Of a stretch of 35,187 bases of DNA, positions 1 to 12,000 are shown one piece after another. Made by a program: the position numbers. How positions within the stretch are numbered: the first letter of the stretch is position 1; each line of letters starts with the position of its first letter. The stretch is from positions 1 to 35,187 of the forward strand of contig DAOORA010000048.1 of assembly GCA_035389045.1 (NCBI GenBank). Direction: 5' to 3'. Origin of the DNA: Bacteroidales bacterium. Lineage in GTDB: Bacteria > Bacteroidota > Bacteroidia > Bacteroidales > CAIWKO01.

Positions 1-3000
1 TATGGGTTACAAACGCAAGCAAACAAGAAAACGGTTCGTATTACAAACTACGAACGACTGGTTTTTTTACAACATTTATAAAGTGTTTTTTGTTTTATTG
101 CACGCGTTGCGAACGCGCGCGTACCGGGGGCGGCCAGCAGGAATGAAGATAAAAAACAGGAATGAAGATAAAAAATTTATGTTATTATTCTGCTGCTCAA
201 AAAAATGAAAGGCCTGTAAAATCAATGTTTACAGGCCATTTTTAGTAGCGGGGACGAGAGTTGAACTCGTGACCTTCGGGTTATGAATCCGACGCTCTAA
301 CCACCTGAGCTACCCCGCCGAAGTCTATTTTATTACCTCTATTTAAAGAGCTGCAAAAATACACATTTTATTTTAACCAAAAAACAATATTCTTTTTATC
401 ACCTCTTCGTCCCCGTATGACTGTCAATTCCTTTTGCAACGTATTACTTTTGTCAAATTAACCTGTAATACAGCATTTTTCAGGATTCAAATTTCCAGAC
501 TGTTTTTCCGGTTTGTACATCTATACATATTCCGCCATATTCGCCAAAAAAGAAGATGATCTGGTTTCCTGACCTTGTGATTTTAACATATCTGGCATCA
601 TTGAAGTAATAATTGTTTTCTATCATGTCGTCAATATTCGGAAAATCATGCTGCCTGATCGTGAACAAAGTTCTTCCTGTAACATCTATACCGCTTATCA
701 GTACTTCTGCATCCTTGCTTATCGCCGTTTGATGCATGACGATCACAAGAGATTCATCGAAATACATGATATTGGCGCTCAGGAAATACGTATCACTGCA
801 AAGCGGAATAAGATCAAAATGCTCATATCCATAATTATTTCGTTTATCCAAATAATATCCAGCATTAAGGCTGTTTGCTCCCGCCAGGTTTGTGAGCGTT
901 CTGAAGCTATTGGTATCTGCCGTCCTGACTACATACAACTGATGTTTTTCAACGGAATTCGGAACGGCTGAAAGAGCAAAAACGAACTTGTTGTCTTTAA
1001 TAAAACGGTCAGCTTTTTCCTGGGAATATTTATACAACTCATCTTCTGTATAAATAAATTTATTTTTCAATATATCATAATAACATTTATTTCCGTCGTT
1101 TGTAGTTATCGCATACATATCATCCGTGCTGAATTTGTTGCTTGTATATTGTTTTTGTATTTCGGAAATACCTTTGGCAAAAATGGCATCGGTTTTCTGG
1201 AATGTTTGAATATCTGATATTTTTTTGAAGTTAACAGCATCATATATATCCATAACGGGTGTTTCACCAATGCCGACGATATATACATTTTTACCTTGCT
1301 GATGGATATAGAAATTTGCAGAATAGTTGTCAACATTAGCTTTTTTATCCTTAATGGCTTTGACCTTATTATTCGTGAGCGGATCATAGATATTGATAAA
1401 GAGCTTACCGGACGATTTGCAGCGGACTTCCCAGATATTTCCCGGGTTTTCGTCCGTTTTTATAAATTGTACATCATTGAACCTTCTGTCCGACGTATCA
1501 AATAAATTGATAACTAAGGGCAAAACAACAGAAGAAGATATTATCGGTACATAAATAAGCAGAAACCAGTTGATTTTTTTCGATTTTCCGGAGGCAACAC
1601 GTATGGTCTGAGGAATGACAACATGATACTGATCCTTTGGATCTATATGTACATTGATATTCTGGCCAACGGTGTAGACGTTCTGGTTTTCAAATGTATT
1701 TTTTATGGTAATACCCGTAACATATTCCCGGTCGGGATGGCCGACAAGCAGTTGTAATACCGTATAGCGGGCGCCGGCCGGTTTTACAGCCAAAATTCCG
1801 GCTTTAACCTTAGGTGTTTCGTTAATAATTTTTAACTCTTCCTTATCCCTTGCTCTTTTTCTGAAGATTACGAAGAGAATAACAGCTACGAAAACCACCA
1901 GTGATGCAGCCAATATCAGATAGGAAGCGGTGCGGTTCTGAATAAAAAAAACAGCGTAAATAACAACTAATATCAGGAGTATAAAAAGAAATAATTCCGT
2001 AATTTTTGAAATTCTGCTCATCTATAAATTATTTATGTTGTTTATATCCCCAGGAATTCAACAGCCACTGCGCTTATGTTATCATCGGAGCCAAAGGCAA
2101 GGCAGTTTTCTTTTATCTTTATTATTTTTTCATACAGGCTCCGGGATGAGGTCAGTATGGATTTCACTATTTTTATGTTCAGCGATTTAAACAAGCCGTC
2201 GGAACATAACAGAAAAATATCGTTTTTCAGTAATTCCGGTTTGACCCAATCCGTATTGATTTTTAAAATATTGTTGTTTCCACCGAAATAATTGATCAAT
2301 GGGCTGTTTGTTTTATTTTCATCGCTGACTTCATCCGAAGAGATTTTTAACAGCATATCATTCCGAAGCAGCCATATTTCAGAGTCGCCGACCTGTATAA
2401 AGTCGACAAAATCGTCAAATGCGATCATTCCGGACAAGGTACAGGCACAACCTTTTTTTGAATTATCACTTTCCGATACAGCAAGCAGCTGACTGTTTGT
2501 ATTATATAAAATGCCGCTGATATCCTTAAAATTTTCGGGTACAAGTTTTAACAGTTCCGATAATACAAATGCCGAAGCAAAGCCGCCCGCATTGTTTCCT
2601 CCGACGCCATCGGAAACAAAACACAGGCATTTTTCATTTTCTGTTAACAGTATCTCACCCTCGTTGATCAGCGCCCCATTGACCAGGATATTATCTTCAT
2701 TTGATACATATTTACCTGTTCCTTTGTTTGTAAAACCGCTTATATTGAATTTCATAACACCGATGTTTAAAGATCTTTTTTAGTTTCTGATATTTCCACC
2801 ATGCTGTTACTTGTCATACATTTCGGACATATTTCATAATAGGTTTCCGATTCAAAACCACAACCTTCGTTACATTTATACCTGCGGTGAATCTGTGCAT
2901 CAGCCTGTTCGCTGACAGCGCCCGTCATTTCAGCATTTCCACTTTCTTCGTACTGGTATTGCACCAGAAAAGCCTCTTTGCCAAGAAATAGGATGCTGTT

Positions 3001-9000: not shown

Positions 9001-12000
9001 ACGTAATTCTTTCTCGGATTTCAGATCATAGGCCTTGGCCGAACCATAGTCACCCAGAACAATATCGGTCTGCTCCTTATCTTTATACAGAATATTCCCG
9101 GGTTTCAGGTCGCAGTGGTATATTTTATATTCGTGTAAGCGGGTTATGGCAAGAAACAGTTGAGGAATTATTTCTCCTTCAATAAATCCGGGGGTATACT
9201 TTTTTTTAAAATCCTCCACTTCCAGTATATTGCCTCCTTCGGCAAATTCCGAAATTTCATAGCAATAGTTCCCGCCGTATTTTTCATCCCCTGTGCCATA
9301 ATCAATAAGCCTTAAAATATCCGGGTCGTTAATATTTTTAATCCGTTCAAGCGCCAGGCTGTTGGGCTCTTCAGCCTCATCGTTAAATTCGTAATAAAGT
9401 TTCAATGCATATTTGTTGCCGGAACTATCAGTAATCAAAAAAACATTGGCTTCGCCGGTACCTTCTGAGATAACTCTTTCTACTGTATAATCAACCTGTT
9501 TAAGCCTTATAACTTCACCGGCATGGACACCCTGTGAATTACCGGTCTTTTTGTTTTCATTTGAAGAATATAGGCCGGTCTTTTCCCTCTCTGCATTATT
9601 ATTATAAATACCGGTTTTACTGTTGATATTTTCTTCTGCACCAGTATCAGCATTGTTGTTTTCTTTTTTCACCAGATTCTTATTTTGAAATAGTGCTATT
9701 TTCTCAGACCAAATCACACACCTGTGTATTTTTAAGGTATAAGTCGTTTGCTTCCCTGACACAAATATATAAAATTTGTCGGCTAAAAATAAATTTGCAT
9801 AAATTTTGTTATGACAATCTAAATTTATTTATAATATTAACAATAATTTGATATTTGGATGTATTCATCACGATCAGCATGACCGACGATGAATGCAAAA
9901 TCCGGACAGCATATTCCTGACATCATCCATATATTGTCCGGATAGTAAAACATTTATTATTATAAACCTCACTGTCTGCTGATTTCGAAACAAAACGCAG
10001 CCAGACTTATGGTATATATAAGGAATATCACTCTTTAATTAATTTCATTTGACTTGTTTTGCTGTCTCCGACCAGCCTGATGATATAAACACCTTTGGAT
10101 AAAGAGTTCACGGCAACATCACCTTTTCCATCGATCAGCATCGTTTCCAGCACGCACTCACCAATCATGTTGTAAACCCGCAGGTGCATCTTTTGTTTAT
10201 CAGGACAGGCAACACTGATCCTGTGATGTGCCGGGTTTGGAGTGACAATCACTGACTCCGGGGTATCCATTTCAGTGGTCCCCGATTCCTTGTTGCAGAT
10301 ACATCTGATCGAAAATCCACTGAGCATTTTGTCGTGGTAATAGCGGTATATCTGTGTATTATCATAGCTCAGAAGCCGGTCCCAGGCGCCAGAGACATCA
10401 TATTCATCCGCAGTCCACCAATAGCCATAGTTTCCTATATCAGTGTACGAGGCATAGATATAACGATAGCCGCCGGGAATGGCGCTGAAGCCGCTGCTGT
10501 TGACAGCACCAGTATTTGGACTGGTCCAGTGTGCTGTTCCCGCCTCCTTAAGTTTCCCGCCGATATCGGTCCCGCTCAGTCCGGTAGCTGTGGTATCCAC
10601 GGCGCTGTCCAGATATTTTTCCATGATATTCCATTCGTGTTCACCCGGCACATGCCAACCCGCAGGGCATATACCGCCGGGGTCATTTGCTGCTGCCCAG
10701 TTGTACAAAGCGCCATAGACAGGAGCATAAACAACAGAATCATTATTATAATAACAGCGGGCACCCGAGGCAATATTTGTCCATGCAGTGGGATTGATGA
10801 CGTTCGGAACCGTCATGCCATTATTGTACCTTGTCACTCTAAGATTTTCCTTCATCCATATCTGTGTGCCAATGGTTACGGTGTTATATACATTGCCGTC
10901 GATGTCGGTCACCGTCTGCGCCATGCTGTTACTTACCAGTATTGTAATAGTTGTAAAAAAAATAAGGATTTGTTTCATGGTTGTTTTGTTTCTTATAAAT
11001 GATTTTTAAAAACTTAGAAACTGTTTTGATTTTATGTTACATAAGATTTATGATGGATTTTTTAGCGAAACGAAGCAGATTTTGCAGACATAGTTTATCC
11101 TATGTCGAAAAATCTAACGAAGTTGCAGCATAAAAGACGCATAAAGATATGAAAAGACAAAATCAAAACAATTTCTTAATCTTAATGGTATCTTATTAAT
11201 TCTGGATAAATCGTTTAAAGACCTGCCTCTTAAATTTTGCAACGCATACAAAATGAAGCATAAATCATTTACAATTTAATCAAAAATACACACGCAATAT
11301 CGCACTTTTGCAGTGTTTGTACAAAAATATTATTTTTTTTCTACAATGGGCTGAATCCCTATCCGATAGAAATTAAAATGTATTTAATAAAAAAATTAAA
11401 ATTTGTCAGGCACATATCTATTATTTTTCAGATACTGATTAATTCAAAAACATTATTCTGCCGAACAACACTGATAATGAAGCCACCGATGCCTTGCCGG
11501 AAGTGCTGTGTGCCTTGAACGGCATCTGTATCAGCAAGAATTTCAACCAGTCAAGTAAAAAAGTCTTTATTTTACAAAAAGAAAAAAATCCTGATTGGCG
11601 ACAGACAGCCGATGTCCCGAAATTGAGATATTTAAAAAAATCAAATAGACTTAATGATTTAAAAAATAATATAAAACTTCTCTATGGCTGTGTAACTTTT
11701 TATTACACAGAAATACTGAGGAAAAGCATAGGTTCTGAACAAACGCAAATTTGTGAATAATTAAGTTTGAAATCCGGTACTAATTGTTTTATTGAGGGAT
11801 GCCATATTCCAATCCGATTATTTTTTCATCATCCCAACCGGCAAACATAAACCTGGCTTTAAGAAACGACGGCGGCCCGAATTTTTCTCTGACATTGTTT
11901 GAGAATCCATAGCCCTCTGTCGGAATACCCCAGACATTTTTATCCAGTTTTCCGTCATTATCTATATCATGCAGCACGGCAATGGCATAATTGCCATAAG

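What a model noticed while it worked through the whole genome (the two positions that open the first line are those of the whole stretch)
2042..9717. A six-gene module (Ser/Thr kinase, PP2C, FHA, half-ClpB AAA+, NrdG-like radical-SAM activase, novel 511-aa helical prote [...]
g02387-g02382 form one co-directional operon: a Ser/Thr protein kinase (750 aa), an uncharacterised 511-aa protein with no family and no fold match (g02386), a 618-aa AAA+ protein whose C-half is the second nucleotide-binding domain of ClpB/ClpV but whose 290-aa N-half is unique (g02385), a 204-aa radical-SAM protein of the glycyl-radical-enzyme activase type (NrdG/PflA-like, below every equivalog cut-off; g02384), an FHA protein and a PP2C phosphatase. 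All six genes lie together in many Bacteroidota and in single genomes labelled Ignavibacteria, Desulfobacteraceae, KSB1, Moduliflexus and Cloacimonadota; five of six in a Myxococcales and a Spirochaetia contig; short contigs of a Heimdallarch [...]
Evidence so far: Of 47 loci found with the AAA+ protein, 18 hold all six genes, 12 hold 4-5, 8 (mostly short contigs) hold 2-3, and 9 distant homologues (Clostridia, Chloroflexaceae, Saccharibacteria; 30-56% identity over the C-half only) hold none; order PP2C-kinase-X-AAA-rSAM-FHA in 4 of 6 loci printed, kinase missing or displaced in 2; here PP2C sits last. gtdb.tsv gives the same accessions for several of the six genes in Zhuqueibacterota, Asgardarchaeota, Desulfobacterota, Cloacimonadota and Spirochaetota. 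NCBIfam: g02384 NrdG 2.7e-30 (105 bits, cut-off 126), PflA 4e-11; g02385 residues 287-617 match ClpB 560-852 and ClpV 554-841. Pfam: Pkinase, FHA, PP2C_2, Fer4_12 (tables; call 166). g02386: no Pfam, N [...]
(Added by a program. Inside this text positions count along the whole contig: contig position 1 is position 1 of the stretch shown here. "Call 12" and the like, gene names such as g00115 and contig names such as C1 are that model's own, and its searches are not shown. The text may have been shortened before it was handed on; [...] marks where a part breaks off. The agent that wrote the report below was given it as the finding of a first reader that could run no searches.)

Follow-up and report, generated by a model that had tools for sequence, protein, structure and literature searches.

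The report
Kinase-gated unfoldase and radical-SAM module
A rare, horizontally spread seven-gene operon joins a membrane receptor kinase, its phosphatase and a phospho-threonine reader to an unusual core of a ClpB-like protein unfoldase, a radical-SAM enzyme of the type that normally switches on glycyl-radical enzymes, and an unknown helical protein; it looks like an undescribed conflict or defence system with possibly new protein-radical chemistry.

Summary
Seven minus-strand genes at 480-9717 form a tight operon, with gaps of -4 to 37 nt. They encode a Ser/Thr kinase, the orphan protein X, an AAA+ protein, an NrdG-like radical-SAM enzyme, an FHA/zinc-ribbon protein, a PP2C phosphatase and a membrane protein, g81.

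An independent scan using X found 23 loci in at least seven phyla. Twelve carry all six functions, nine are cut by a contig or locus end, and two are decayed.

Four points are new here:
- The AAA+ "unique" N-half folds as a degenerate D1 ring domain of Hsp100 proteins.
- The kinases are receptor-type. A transmembrane helix near residue 720 is followed by variable outer domains (SH3, FGE-sulfatase, WD40). In this clade the outer part appears to be replaced by the separate g81 proteins.
- The AAA+/radical-SAM pair is the invariant core of a wider family of 605 clusters. On proteobacterial plasmids it sits beside Mokosh- and Hhe-like helicase-nuclease and PIN genes.
- The window's genome has no glycyl-radical enzyme, and other carriers have separate activases for theirs.

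The module is very rare: 3 of 23 genomes in the family and 0 of 300 others sampled in the phylum.

Best reading (confidence 0.4): a phospho-threonine-gated conflict or defence module whose unfoldase presents a protein loop to the radical-SAM enzyme. Function is inferred. No description was found in the literature searched.

The parts
7465..9717 (-). Receptor-type Ser/Thr protein kinase (750 aa). It has a kinase domain at about residues 78-340, a family-specific cytoplasmic middle region up to about residue 720, and a single C-terminal transmembrane helix at 728-746.
   Evidence: Pkinase 8.3e-25. Hydrophobic segment 728-746. The middle region aligns to the kinases of the other loci out to residues ~500-745, to ~720-745 in about half of them. 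The catalytic motifs (Lys in a VAIK-like motif, HCDLKPGN, DYG, PPE) can be read in the translation; the motif names are recalled.
5892..7427 (-). Protein X (511 aa). It consists of long helical bundles whose N-terminal strands and C-terminal alpha/beta region pack into one small globular domain. Gly420 and Cys451 are invariant. It is the fastest-evolving member of the module.
   Evidence: No family hit. 45 homologues. Invariant columns from alignment A1. AF2 model pLDDT 82.4. No Foldseek match at E<=0.001. Best VIA Z is 9.7, on helices only.
5006..5890 (-). AAA+ protein, residues 1-295: a degenerate D1-like AAA+ domain. There is no Walker A lysine; a conserved G-N-x-x-D sits at the P-loop position.
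   Evidence: VIA-align gives ClpA 1ksf_X Z 20.2 with 461 residues aligned over model 3-618; HSP101 6e10 with 498 aligned; ClpB1 9ip0 with 487 aligned. There is no sequence-level match. Residues surviving across the wide family come from alignment A8.
4034..5005 (-). AAA+ protein, residues 296-618: an intact ClpB-type D2 ATPase with its small domain. Walker A and B, sensor 1, the Arg finger, sensor 2 and the GYVG-type pore loop are all conserved.
   Evidence: AAA_2 7.3e-52 and ClpB_D2-small 9.2e-6. ClpB 7e-79. 4lj4_A Z 21.9. Invariant columns.
3423..4037 (-). NrdG-like radical-SAM enzyme (204 aa). Its start overlaps the AAA+ stop by 4 nt. The CX3CX2C, GGEP and GS-x-NQ motifs are invariant. It has a C-terminal extension of about 50 aa that the 154-position NrdG model does not cover.
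   Evidence: Fer4_12 8.8e-30. NrdG 105.3 bits against a cut-off of 126.1. PFL-AE 8fo0 at 1.2e-3. Alignments A6 and A9.
2767..3408 (-). FHA adaptor (213 aa): an N-terminal four-Cys zinc ribbon, an FHA domain with intact phospho-threonine-binding residues, and a C-terminal four-Cys zinc ribbon.
   Evidence: FHA 3.8e-10 and Zn_ribbon_LapB 2.4e-4. Invariant G73, S94, H97, N116, G117, T118 and near-invariant R74; invariant C6, C25, C28, C179, C183, C194, C197 and near-invariant C9.
2042..2755 (-). PP2C-type Ser/Thr phosphatase (237 aa), the presumed reset enzyme.
   Evidence: PP2C_2 4.7e-7. Stp1/IreP family 5e-26, below its cut-off. The metal-binding Asp motifs can be read in the translation; the motif names are recalled.
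480..2021 (-). g81 (513 aa): a membrane protein with two N-terminal and one further hydrophobic segment and a large non-cytoplasmic part. It is proposed to be the detached sensor of the tail-anchored kinase and is specific to this clade.
   Evidence: Hydrophobic segments at 9-27, 35-53 and 153-171. There are 3-4 tandem paralogues in L004-L006. No family hit.
211..319 (-). Downstream boundary: tRNA-Met (245-319) and a 10-bp-stem hairpin terminator (211-237).

Best explanation
This is a horizontally mobile conflict module, most likely anti-phage or anti-invader, possibly acting by abortive infection, and switched by threonine phosphorylation.

Proposed sequence of events:
- A membrane-anchored receptor kinase senses a cue at the envelope. 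In other clades it does this through its own SH3, FGE-sulfatase or WD40 outer domains. Here it probably uses the separate g81 membrane proteins.
- The kinase phosphorylates a module protein.
- The FHA/zinc-ribbon adaptor reads the phospho-threonine, and PP2C resets it.
- The output is a conserved core of three proteins: the elongated protein X, a hexameric Hsp100-type unfoldase with a dead D1 and a live ClpB-like D2 ring, and a glycyl-radical-activase-like radical-SAM enzyme.
- I propose that the unfoldase opens or threads a protein substrate so that the radical-SAM enzyme can abstract a hydrogen from an exposed loop. The first candidate is the invariant Gly420 hairpin of X, next to invariant Cys451.
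- The resulting protein radical or modification would arrest the cell or disable an invader.

Shown: gene content, order, conservation, intact catalytic motifs, fold of the AAA+ protein, rarity, and context.

Inferred: every functional step, the substrate, and the defence role.
For: Operon and conservation:
- It is a tight operon that travels as a unit across at least seven phyla. The flanking genes differ almost everywhere. There are two different contexts within one genus.

Rarity:
- 3 of 23 genomes of the family carry it, that is 2 of 17 congeners.
- 0 of 300 other sampled genomes of the phylum carry it.

Invariant core:
- The AAA+/rSAM pair is the constant element. The rSAM lies next to the AAA+ in 8 of 9 inspected plasmid loci whose AAA+ N-half is only 21-27% identical to the window's.
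- In those plasmids the neighbours are defence-type genes. One is an SF1 helicase matching MkoA at 8.7e-96. Others are PIN proteins. One is a 2086-aa STK-DUF4011-helicase-REase protein matching PDC-S37 at 9e-139 and Hhe at 8e-65. A viperin-like/VakA pair lies directly downstream in one plasmid.
- A Clostridia plasmid keeps STK, a hypothetical 430-aa protein, FHA, rSAM, AAA+ and PP2C together.

Signalling parts:
- The kinase matches the defence kinase models mad6, MkoA and PD-T4-6.
- The kinases carry variable outer domains beyond a transmembrane helix.

Evolutionary rates:
- X evolves much faster (23-30% identity across phyla) than the AAA+ (49-68%), the rSAM (40-47%) or FHA (29-36%).

The rSAM has no canonical partner:
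- The window's genome is 96.3% complete and has no Gly_radical, NRDD or PFL-like gene and no second NrdG.
- In five other carriers, 6 of 7 glycyl-radical enzymes have their own PflA-like activase within about 6 kb.

Catalytic integrity:
- The rSAM, D2, FHA, PP2C and kinase motifs are all intact.
- Gly and Cys of the X C-terminal domain align in the Clostridia homologue (hhalign E 1.9e-4). They recur in the ~370-aa proteobacterial partner (weak, E 0.046).
Against: - No experiment bears on the function, and no known defence system model matches as a whole.
- No copy was found in phage records or in viral contigs (pattern-limited).
- The Bacteroidota form has no recognisable nuclease or other classical effector.
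- Many flanking genes are housekeeping genes or T9SS cargo. Only some loci have defence-like neighbours.
- The BREX island in the window is about 10 kb away and separated by housekeeping genes.
- No RVxG[FYW]-type glycyl-radical motif occurs in any module protein.
- X has no GRE barrel.
- The Rhizobium/Caballeronia form has AAA+ and rSAM but no X-like gene upstream. X therefore cannot be the universal substrate.
- The Asp of the activase DGxGxR motif (motif recalled) is Leu here.
- X homology to the proteobacterial ~370-aa partner is only at motif level.
Confidence: 0.4

Rival explanations
1. It is a cellular envelope-stress or developmental signalling module. The receptor kinase, PP2C and FHA would regulate a specialised chaperone (the Hsp100-like AAA+ with X as adaptor or scaffold) for the cell's own protein quality control. 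The rSAM would act as a maturase or redox-sensitive cofactor.
For: Receptor kinases with SH3, FGE-sulfatase or WD40 outer domains and STK/PP2C/FHA trios are common in housekeeping signalling (general knowledge). The AAA+ D2 is a bona fide ClpB-type unfoldase module. Many neighbours are housekeeping genes.
Against: It is extremely patchy: 2 of 17 congeners and 0 of 300 genomes in the phylum. Its context varies. It occurs on plasmids. Its distant forms are linked with MkoA/Hhe-like helicase-nucleases and PIN proteins. X evolves quickly.
Confidence: 0.2
2. It is a regulatory and recycling cassette for a secretion or contractile apparatus. The analogue is the type VI threonine-phosphorylation pathway (PpkA/PppA/Fha plus ClpV), with X as the polymer that the AAA+ disassembles.
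For: The quartet of STK, PP2C, FHA and a ClpV/ClpB-like ATPase is the same. The FHA protein weakly matches TagH (2.2e-5) and the AAA+ matches TssH at 2e-64, both below their cut-offs. X is a long helical protein with a conserved C-terminal tail.
Against: No sheath, tube, baseplate or other secretion genes are in the operon or in the conserved neighbourhood. The AAA+ lacks the Clp N-domain that ClpV uses. The rSAM has no place in this scheme. The proteobacterial forms sit with helicase-nucleases.
Confidence: 0.08
3. The rSAM is simply an extra activase for a canonical glycyl-radical enzyme (NrdD or a PFL-type enzyme) encoded elsewhere, and has no chemistry within the module.
For: Its best family match is NrdG (2.7e-30; phrog_626 at 1e-31). 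Five of five other carriers tested do have PFL-type enzymes.
Against: The window's genome (96.3% complete) has no Gly_radical, NRDD or PFL-like gene. Six of 7 glycyl-radical enzymes in the other carriers have their own activase next to them. The rSAM scores below every equivalog cut-off. Its gene overlaps the AAA+ gene and stays beside it across very distant forms.
Confidence: 0.05
4. It is a peptide-maturation (RiPP-like) cluster. The rSAM would modify a small precursor peptide, and the kinase and AAA+ would serve in modification or export.
For: The kinase domain weakly matches lanthionine-synthetase kinase domains (1.5e-9 and 1.4e-6, far below their cut-offs). Radical-SAM enzymes are common in RiPP pathways (general knowledge).
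Against: The intergenic gaps of at most 37 nt leave no room for a precursor gene between the genes. The rSAM lacks the SPASM or RRE domains usual for peptide-modifying rSAMs. There is no transporter or protease. I did not search systematically for small ORFs.
Confidence: 0.04

Closest known systems
Glycyl-radical-enzyme activases (NrdG, PflA)
   Same: It has a small Fer4_12-type radical-SAM core, a CX3CX2C cluster motif, GGEP and GS-x-NQ motifs and a G-x-G-x-R loop before the cluster. Its best family hits are NrdG and PflA.
   Different: It scores below every equivalog cut-off (105.3 against 126.1 bits). It has a C-terminal extension of about 50 aa. There is no glycyl-radical enzyme in the window's genome. 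It is always paired with an Hsp100-like AAA+ rather than a GRE.
ClpB/ClpA/ClpV (two-ring Hsp100 unfoldases)
   Same: The D2 ring and small domain are clearly ClpB-type in sequence and fold. The whole model superposes on both rings of ClpA, ClpB1 and HSP101.
   Different: D1 has lost the nucleotide-binding motifs and shows no sequence similarity to any family. No Clp N-domain or middle-domain family was detected. Scores lie far below the cut-offs (266 against 1232 bits for ClpB).
Type VI secretion threonine-phosphorylation pathway (PpkA, PppA, Fha1, ClpV1)
   Same: It has a membrane Ser/Thr kinase, a PP2C phosphatase, an FHA protein and a Clp-type ATPase encoded together (the pathway itself is recalled).
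   Different: There are no T6SS structural genes in or beside the module. It has an extra rSAM and protein X. The FHA protein carries two zinc ribbons.
Mokosh type I and Hhe / PDC-S37 helicase-nuclease defence systems
   Same: The kinase domain matches MkoA (3.4e-20). In proteobacterial plasmids the homologous AAA+/rSAM pair lies beside MkoA-like helicases, PIN proteins, or an STK-helicase-REase giant protein.
   Different: The window's module has no helicase and no nuclease. The AAA+, rSAM, X, FHA and PP2C are not parts of Mokosh or Hhe as modelled in PADLOC.
Dodola (DolB) and PDC-M37 (PDC-M37B) ClpB-like defence ATPases
   Same: The AAA core (residues ~277-466) matches PDC-M37B at 9e-31 and DolB at 6.6e-22.
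   Different: Only the ATPase core matches. The N-half, the partner proteins (X, rSAM) and the signalling trio have no counterpart among the PADLOC models.

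Membership tests
GRE-activating radical-SAM enzymes (NrdG/PflA) | CX3CX2C [4Fe-4S] motif and GGEP SAM-binding motif | tested here: met
   C28, C32, C35 and G72-G73-E74-P75 are invariant in 14 sequences. All but E74 also stay invariant in the 9 distant ones.
GRE-activating radical-SAM enzymes (NrdG/PflA) | Score above the curated equivalog cut-off | tested here: not met
   NrdG 105.3 bits against 126.1. PFLA 42.7 against 231.75. NrdG3 53 against 151.7.
GRE-activating radical-SAM enzymes (NrdG/PflA) | A cognate glycyl-radical enzyme in the genome or next to the gene | tested here: not met
   PF01228, PF13597 and PF02901 give no match in the window's genome, which is 96.3% complete. 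No RVxG[FYW] motif occurs in any module protein.
GRE-activating radical-SAM enzymes (NrdG/PflA) | Generates a glycyl radical on a protein substrate | not testable with these tools
   This needs anaerobic reconstitution and EPR.
ClpB/Hsp100 | Functional D2 AAA+ module with the ClpB small domain | tested here: met
   AAA_2 7.3e-52 and ClpB_D2-small 9.2e-6. 4lj4_A Z 21.9. Walker A and B, sensor and Arg residues are invariant.
ClpB/Hsp100 | Functional D1 AAA+ module (Walker A GKT, Walker B) | tested here: not met
   The fold aligns to D1, but the P-loop position reads G-N-x-x-D with no lysine. There is no profile match.
ClpB/Hsp100 | Clp N-domain and coiled-coil middle domain; score above the equivalog cut-off | tested here: not met
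   There is no Clp_N hit. ClpB scores 266.2 against 1232.1 bits, and TssH 218.3 against 884.95.
T6SS threonine-phosphorylation pathway | STK, PP2C and FHA encoded together with a Clp-type ATPase | tested here: met
T6SS threonine-phosphorylation pathway | Linked T6SS structural genes (sheath, tube, baseplate) | tested here: not met
   No such family appears among the window's ten ORFs or the 113 flanking ORFs of the related loci. It was not searched genome-wide.
Mokosh type I | MkoA helicase domain and MkoB nuclease | tested here: not met
   Only the kinase part of the MkoA model (positions 10-293 of 1112) matches. No protein of the module matches MkoB.
Dodola / PDC-M37 | Partner protein (DolA / PDC-M37A) and a full-length match of the ATPase | tested here: not met
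   The match covers the AAA core only. X, rSAM, FHA and PP2C give no PADLOC hit to those systems.
FHA phospho-threonine readers | Conserved Gly-Arg, Ser-x-x-His and Asn-Gly-Thr binding residues | tested here: met
   G73, S94, H97, N116, G117 and T118 are invariant and R74 nearly so in 13 sequences. The assignment of residue roles is recalled.

The most novel reading that the evidence does not exclude
The module would be an unfoldase-coupled protein-radical machine. On kinase signalling, the Hsp100-like ring (dead D1, live D2) would feed an exposed loop to a glycyl-radical-activase-like enzyme. That loop could belong to X (Gly420/Cys451) or to an invader's protein. This would be the first use of glycyl-radical-type chemistry outside metabolic enzymes, here as an immune or suicide effector. 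The AAA+/rSAM pair would then be a portable effector cassette that also serves Mokosh- and Hhe-like helicase-nuclease systems.
Probability: 0.15. Interest if true: 0.9.

Novelty: categorically new. Interest (0 to 1): 0.75.

Why it matters
If the reading holds, this is an undescribed multi-gene conflict system found in many bacterial phyla and on plasmids. Its core pairs two enzyme types not known to work together.

It would extend glycyl-radical-activase chemistry beyond the activation of metabolic enzymes. It would give a function to a family of about 600 AAA+ clusters with a pseudo-ATPase D1. It would also show how receptor kinases with swappable outer domains can gate such an effector.

Even if the defence role fails, an NrdG-like enzyme in a genome without any glycyl-radical enzyme, locked to an unfoldase, poses a clear and testable biochemical question.

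Tried and rejected
- **Complex prediction, AAA+ (A2) with rSAM (A6).** Both runs scored 0.00 and the controls were not run. The tool's verdict is 'no answer'. This says nothing for or against binding.
- **Sequence-level link of the N-half to AAA+ domains.** A profile against PDB sequences gave 0 hits at E<=10. Pfam on 17 members gave nothing meaningful. hhalign of the N-half against the C-half gave probability 0.1%. The D1 assignment rests on the fold alone.
- **Fold of X.** Foldseek against PDB gave nothing at E<=0.001. VIA-align wide gave a best Z of 9.7 on helical segments, and about 7-8 for KA1/AMPK-like matches to the split terminal domain. This is within the range the tool calls common for helical models. 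The ESM Atlas returned only 'hypothetical protein' clusters, plus one DUF2997/DUF1257 structural row (TM 0.50 by that row) that I did not confirm. Pfam at E<=10 gave DUF6864 in 5 of 21 members, best 9.5e-4; I did not follow this up.
- **Kinase middle region in the ESM Atlas.** Scores of 0.76-0.79 are below any useful level.
- **Homology of X to the proteobacterial ~370-aa partner.** hhalign gave E 0.046 and probability 1.2%. That partner against the Clostridia 430-aa protein matched only in coiled coil. This is kept as a motif-level lead only.
- **Phage or virus carriage.** There was no tblastn match among 50,697 phage records and none in viral contigs by pattern scan.
- **Island boundaries.** No direct repeat of the tRNA-Met end was found upstream.
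- **Sigma-70 promoter scan.** The result was no better than shuffles: 31 found against 27.2 expected.
- **rSAM fusions.** Three longer proteins were found, none informative about the partner.
- **Literature.** Full-text searches found no description of this gene set.
  - I read passages of PMC7159879, of the preprint 10.64898/2026.10.19.760177 and of PMC10853773. They describe other systems.
  - PMC11811056 was seen only in the search listing.
  - Subscription papers and bioRxiv supplements could not be searched.

Full report
**1. The observation**

The window carries seven co-directional minus-strand ORFs between 480 and 9717. Intergenic gaps are 37, 1, -4, 14, 11 and 20 nt. A tRNA-Met (245-319) and a strong hairpin (211-237) lie downstream.

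- Pkinase 8.3e-25.
- FHA 3.8e-10 plus a zinc-ribbon hit.
- PP2C_2 4.7e-7, and Stp1-type 5e-26.
- Fer4_12 8.8e-30, with NrdG at 105.3 bits against a cut-off of 126.1.
- AAA_2 7.3e-52, with ClpB 7e-79 over residues 303-617 only.

The 511-aa protein X matches nothing in Pfam, NCBIfam, PADLOC or PHROGs.

The catalytic or binding motifs of the kinase, PP2C, FHA, D2 ATPase and rSAM are all present and conserved. The naming of some motifs is from memory.

**2. Conservation, tested with a different probe**

I searched with a profile of X, the least conserved gene, rather than with the AAA+ protein. X has 45 homologues in the large protein collection. A scan of one genome per species returned 23 loci. 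I annotated these with the window's seven proteins.
- 11 loci have all six genes.
- L011 has PP2C fused to the kinase.
- 9 loci are cut by a contig or locus end.
- L008 and L010 keep X (L010 also PP2C and STK), but ordinary genes follow it. These look like decayed copies.

The commonest order is PP2C-STK-X-AAA-rSAM-FHA. X-AAA and rSAM-FHA stay adjacent even when kinases are inserted between them (L020).

Record titles span Bacteroidota, KSB1, Desulfobacteraceae, Moduliflexus, Spirochaetota, Ignavibacteria and Chlorobiota.

Rates of change differ sharply across phyla:

| Protein | Identity to the window's copy |
|---|---|
| X | 23-30% |
| FHA | 29-36% |
| rSAM | 40-47% |
| AAA+ N-half | 49-55% |
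| AAA+ C-half | 63-68% |

**3. The AAA+ protein is not a half ClpB**

The N-half has 464 close homologues. A profile of it finds 605 clusters at 50% identity in 1.84 billion representatives, 348 of them at E<=1e-10. Nearly all listed full-length members are 600-690 aa.

No sequence method links the N-half to any family.

The AlphaFold model (pLDDT 73.8) aligns over both halves to two-ring Hsp100s:

| Structure | Z | Residues aligned | Model range |
|---|---|---|---|
| ClpA 1ksf_X | 20.2 | 461 | 3-618, against chain 187-745 |
| HSP101 6e10 | 19.4 | 498 | 5-618 |
| ClpB1 9ip0 | 18.5 | 487 | 4-618 |
| ClpB NBD2 alone, 4lj4_A | 21.9 | 293 | 281-618 |

The rmsd values of the long alignments are high (6.6-9.2 A), as expected if the domain orientation differs.

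The strand-helix order of residues 23-230 is that of an AAA+ core followed by a helical lid. The P-loop position reads G-N-x-x-D with no lysine, and this is among the few N-half features kept across the wide family.

I therefore read the N-half as a degenerate, nucleotide-blind D1. No Clp N-domain or middle-domain family was detected.

**4. The kinases are receptors**

In 19 of 24 kinase ORFs from the related loci, a simple hydropathy scan finds one or more hydrophobic segments. They start near residue 715-750 in about half and further along in the rest. Behind them come variable regions (20 kinases scanned):
- SH3_3 in 5.
- FGE-sulfatase in 3.
- WD40 in 1.
- The rest had no Pfam outer domain; several of these carry further hydrophobic segments.

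The window's kinase and its closest relatives end immediately after that helix (728-746 of 750). They are followed by 1-4 tandem copies of g81, a protein with 2-3 hydrophobic segments and a large remaining part. In L017 a shorter kinase is followed by a separate SH3 protein.

The simplest reading is that the sensor part has been split off in this clade. This is an inference.

A cytoplasmic region of about 380 aa between the kinase domain and the helix is conserved in the family. It has no known relative.

**5. Protein X**

The model (pLDDT 82.4) shows helical bundles between residues ~79 and 381. The N-terminal strands (5-50) and the C-terminal alpha/beta part (400-475) come together.

Foldseek finds nothing. 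VIA-align gives only generic helical matches, plus matches of Z 7-8 for the terminal domain.

The C-terminal domain is the conserved part. Gly420, at a hairpin tip, and Thr450-Cys451 are invariant in 21 sequences.

**6. A wider family and its company**

tblastn with the N-half finds no phage record. It finds 14 plasmid records at 21-27% identity over the full length. I inspected nine.

In eight of them an NrdG-like rSAM lies directly beside the AAA+ gene. It is shortened in L042 and absent in the Geminocystis plasmid. The forms are:
- **Clostridia plasmid (L027).** It has STK, a 430-aa hypothetical protein, FHA with a double zinc ribbon, rSAM, AAA+ and PP2C. The hypothetical protein's C-terminus aligns to that of X (hhalign E 1.9e-4, probability 47%, with Gly and Cys aligned).
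- **Four proteobacterial plasmids (L028, L031-L033).** These share a five-gene set:
  - an SF1 helicase of 1270-1630 aa (the L028 copy scanned: AAA_11/AAA_12, MkoA 8.7e-96);
  - a PIN-domain protein;
  - a ~370-aa hypothetical protein;
  - the AAA+;
  - the rSAM.
- **Rhizobium and Caballeronia plasmids.** These have AAA+, rSAM and then a giant protein that matches the window's kinase. The L030 copy combines STK, DUF4011, helicase and REase domains (PDC-S37 9e-139, Hhe 8e-65).
- **The Acinetobacter plasmid (L028).** A viperin-like rSAM and a VakA-like kinase follow directly.

The ~370-aa proteins share with X a similar run of motifs, including a Gly hairpin and a Thr/Gln-Cys. The profile comparison is weak (E 0.046).

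The rSAMs of all forms keep G-P-G-x-R, CX3CX2C, G-G-x-P and GS-x-NQ.

The invariant core is therefore the AAA+/rSAM pair, usually with an X-like protein. It is combined either with a full phospho-threonine switch or with helicase-nuclease genes of known defence families.

**7. The rSAM has no ordinary partner**

The window's genome (96.3% complete, 135 contigs) has no Gly_radical, NRDD or PFL-like gene and no second NrdG-like gene.

Against my reading, five of five other carriers tested do have PFL-type enzymes. However, six of those seven enzymes have their own PflA-like activase within about 6 kb on the same contig, so the module's rSAM is supernumerary there.

No module protein has an RVxG[FYW]-type motif.

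**8. Distribution and context**

The N-half is found in 3 of 23 genomes of the family including the window's own, which is 2 of 17 other congeners. It is found in 0 of 300 other high-quality genomes sampled across the phylum.

The two congeners that carry it (the genomes of L005 and L006) have it in a different neighbourhood from the window.

Across loci the flanks differ almost everywhere:
- Many are housekeeping genes or T9SS cargo.
- Some are defence-like. Examples are reverse transcriptase and DUF4407 in L011, AAA_35 proteins in L017, Schlafen/AlbA_2 in L018, DUF4238 and Hypoth_Ymh in L023, and HIRAN in L022.

In the window, a BREX type-4-like set with PDC-M04 lies at 19.4-30.4 kb. It is separated from the module by DUF2141, RtcB and tRNA-Arg, so this is weak evidence.

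**9. Interpretation**

Several features fit a conflict or defence system better than a housekeeping pathway:
- rarity, mobility and plasmid carriage;
- swappable sensor domains;
- a fast-evolving component beside strongly constrained enzymes;
- repeated linkage of the core pair to Mokosh/Hhe-type genes.

My confidence in this is 0.4.

The mechanism is inferred in these steps:
- Receptor kinase signalling produces a phospho-threonine.
- The FHA adaptor reads it, and PP2C resets it.
- The unfoldase remodels or threads a protein.
- The activase-like rSAM then acts on an exposed loop.

X Gly420/Cys451 is the first candidate substrate. The Rhizobium-type loci lack X, so the substrate may instead be the AAA+ protein itself, the giant partner, or an invader's protein.

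The single complex prediction gave no answer.

**10. Comparison and novelty**

The module fails the membership tests for NrdG/PflA equivalogs, ClpB/ClpV, the T6SS phosphorylation pathway, Mokosh, Dodola and PDC-M37 (see the membership table). It resembles each of them in part.

Six full-text searches and passages of three papers gave no description of this gene set. Papers outside the held library and bioRxiv supplements could not be checked.

I rate the core pairing as categorically new, with the caveat that no function has been shown.

Noticed in passing
window 19369-30352 (-): A BREX type-4-like island: PDC-M04B and PDC-M04A (3.4e-73, 3.4e-79), BrxL (1.4e-219), PglZ (1.7e-95), BrxC (2.9e-250) and BrxP (2.4e-271). 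It lies in a low-GC stretch (0.28-0.34). It is about 10 kb from the module and not adjacent to it.
   Followed up: partly
window 31039-33231 (-): A 730-aa protein with a PrimPol/VirE-like match (3e-18). It lies next to the BREX island and may be part of an integrated element.
   Followed up: no
window ~11009-11185: A stretch of about 170 nt recurs at 93-96% identity on at least 5 contigs of congener G003 and at least 3 of G014. It also matches its own reverse strand weakly, so it looks like a MITE-like repeat.
   Followed up: no
window 138-175: A perfect tandem duplication of a 19-nt unit downstream of tRNA-Met.
   Followed up: no
window 10028-10978 (-) and L008 1849-2676: A FISUMP (Fib_succ_major) protein with a T9SS sorting domain lies just upstream of the module, and another FISUMP gene lies next to the decayed copy in L008. 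T9SS cargo genes also flank L005, L006 and L022. This may be coincidence in Bacteroidota.
   Followed up: no
L022 11553-12128 and L026 732-1310: A 192-aa SAM-dependent methyltransferase is inserted between X and the AAA+ gene in two loci.
   Followed up: no
L028 10733-12712: On the Acinetobacter plasmid, a VakA-like nucleotide kinase (5e-19) and a viperin-like rSAM (1.1e-11) lie directly downstream of the AAA+/rSAM pair. This suggests a defence island.
   Followed up: no
P0316, P0317, P0318: Three longer proteins carry the same rSAM type fused to other regions. These are an unknown ~360-aa domain, a ~190-aa tail, and HEAT repeats.
   Followed up: no
window 12905-14219: An RtcB RNA ligase (2.4e-115) lies next to tRNA-Arg(TCT).
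   Followed up: no
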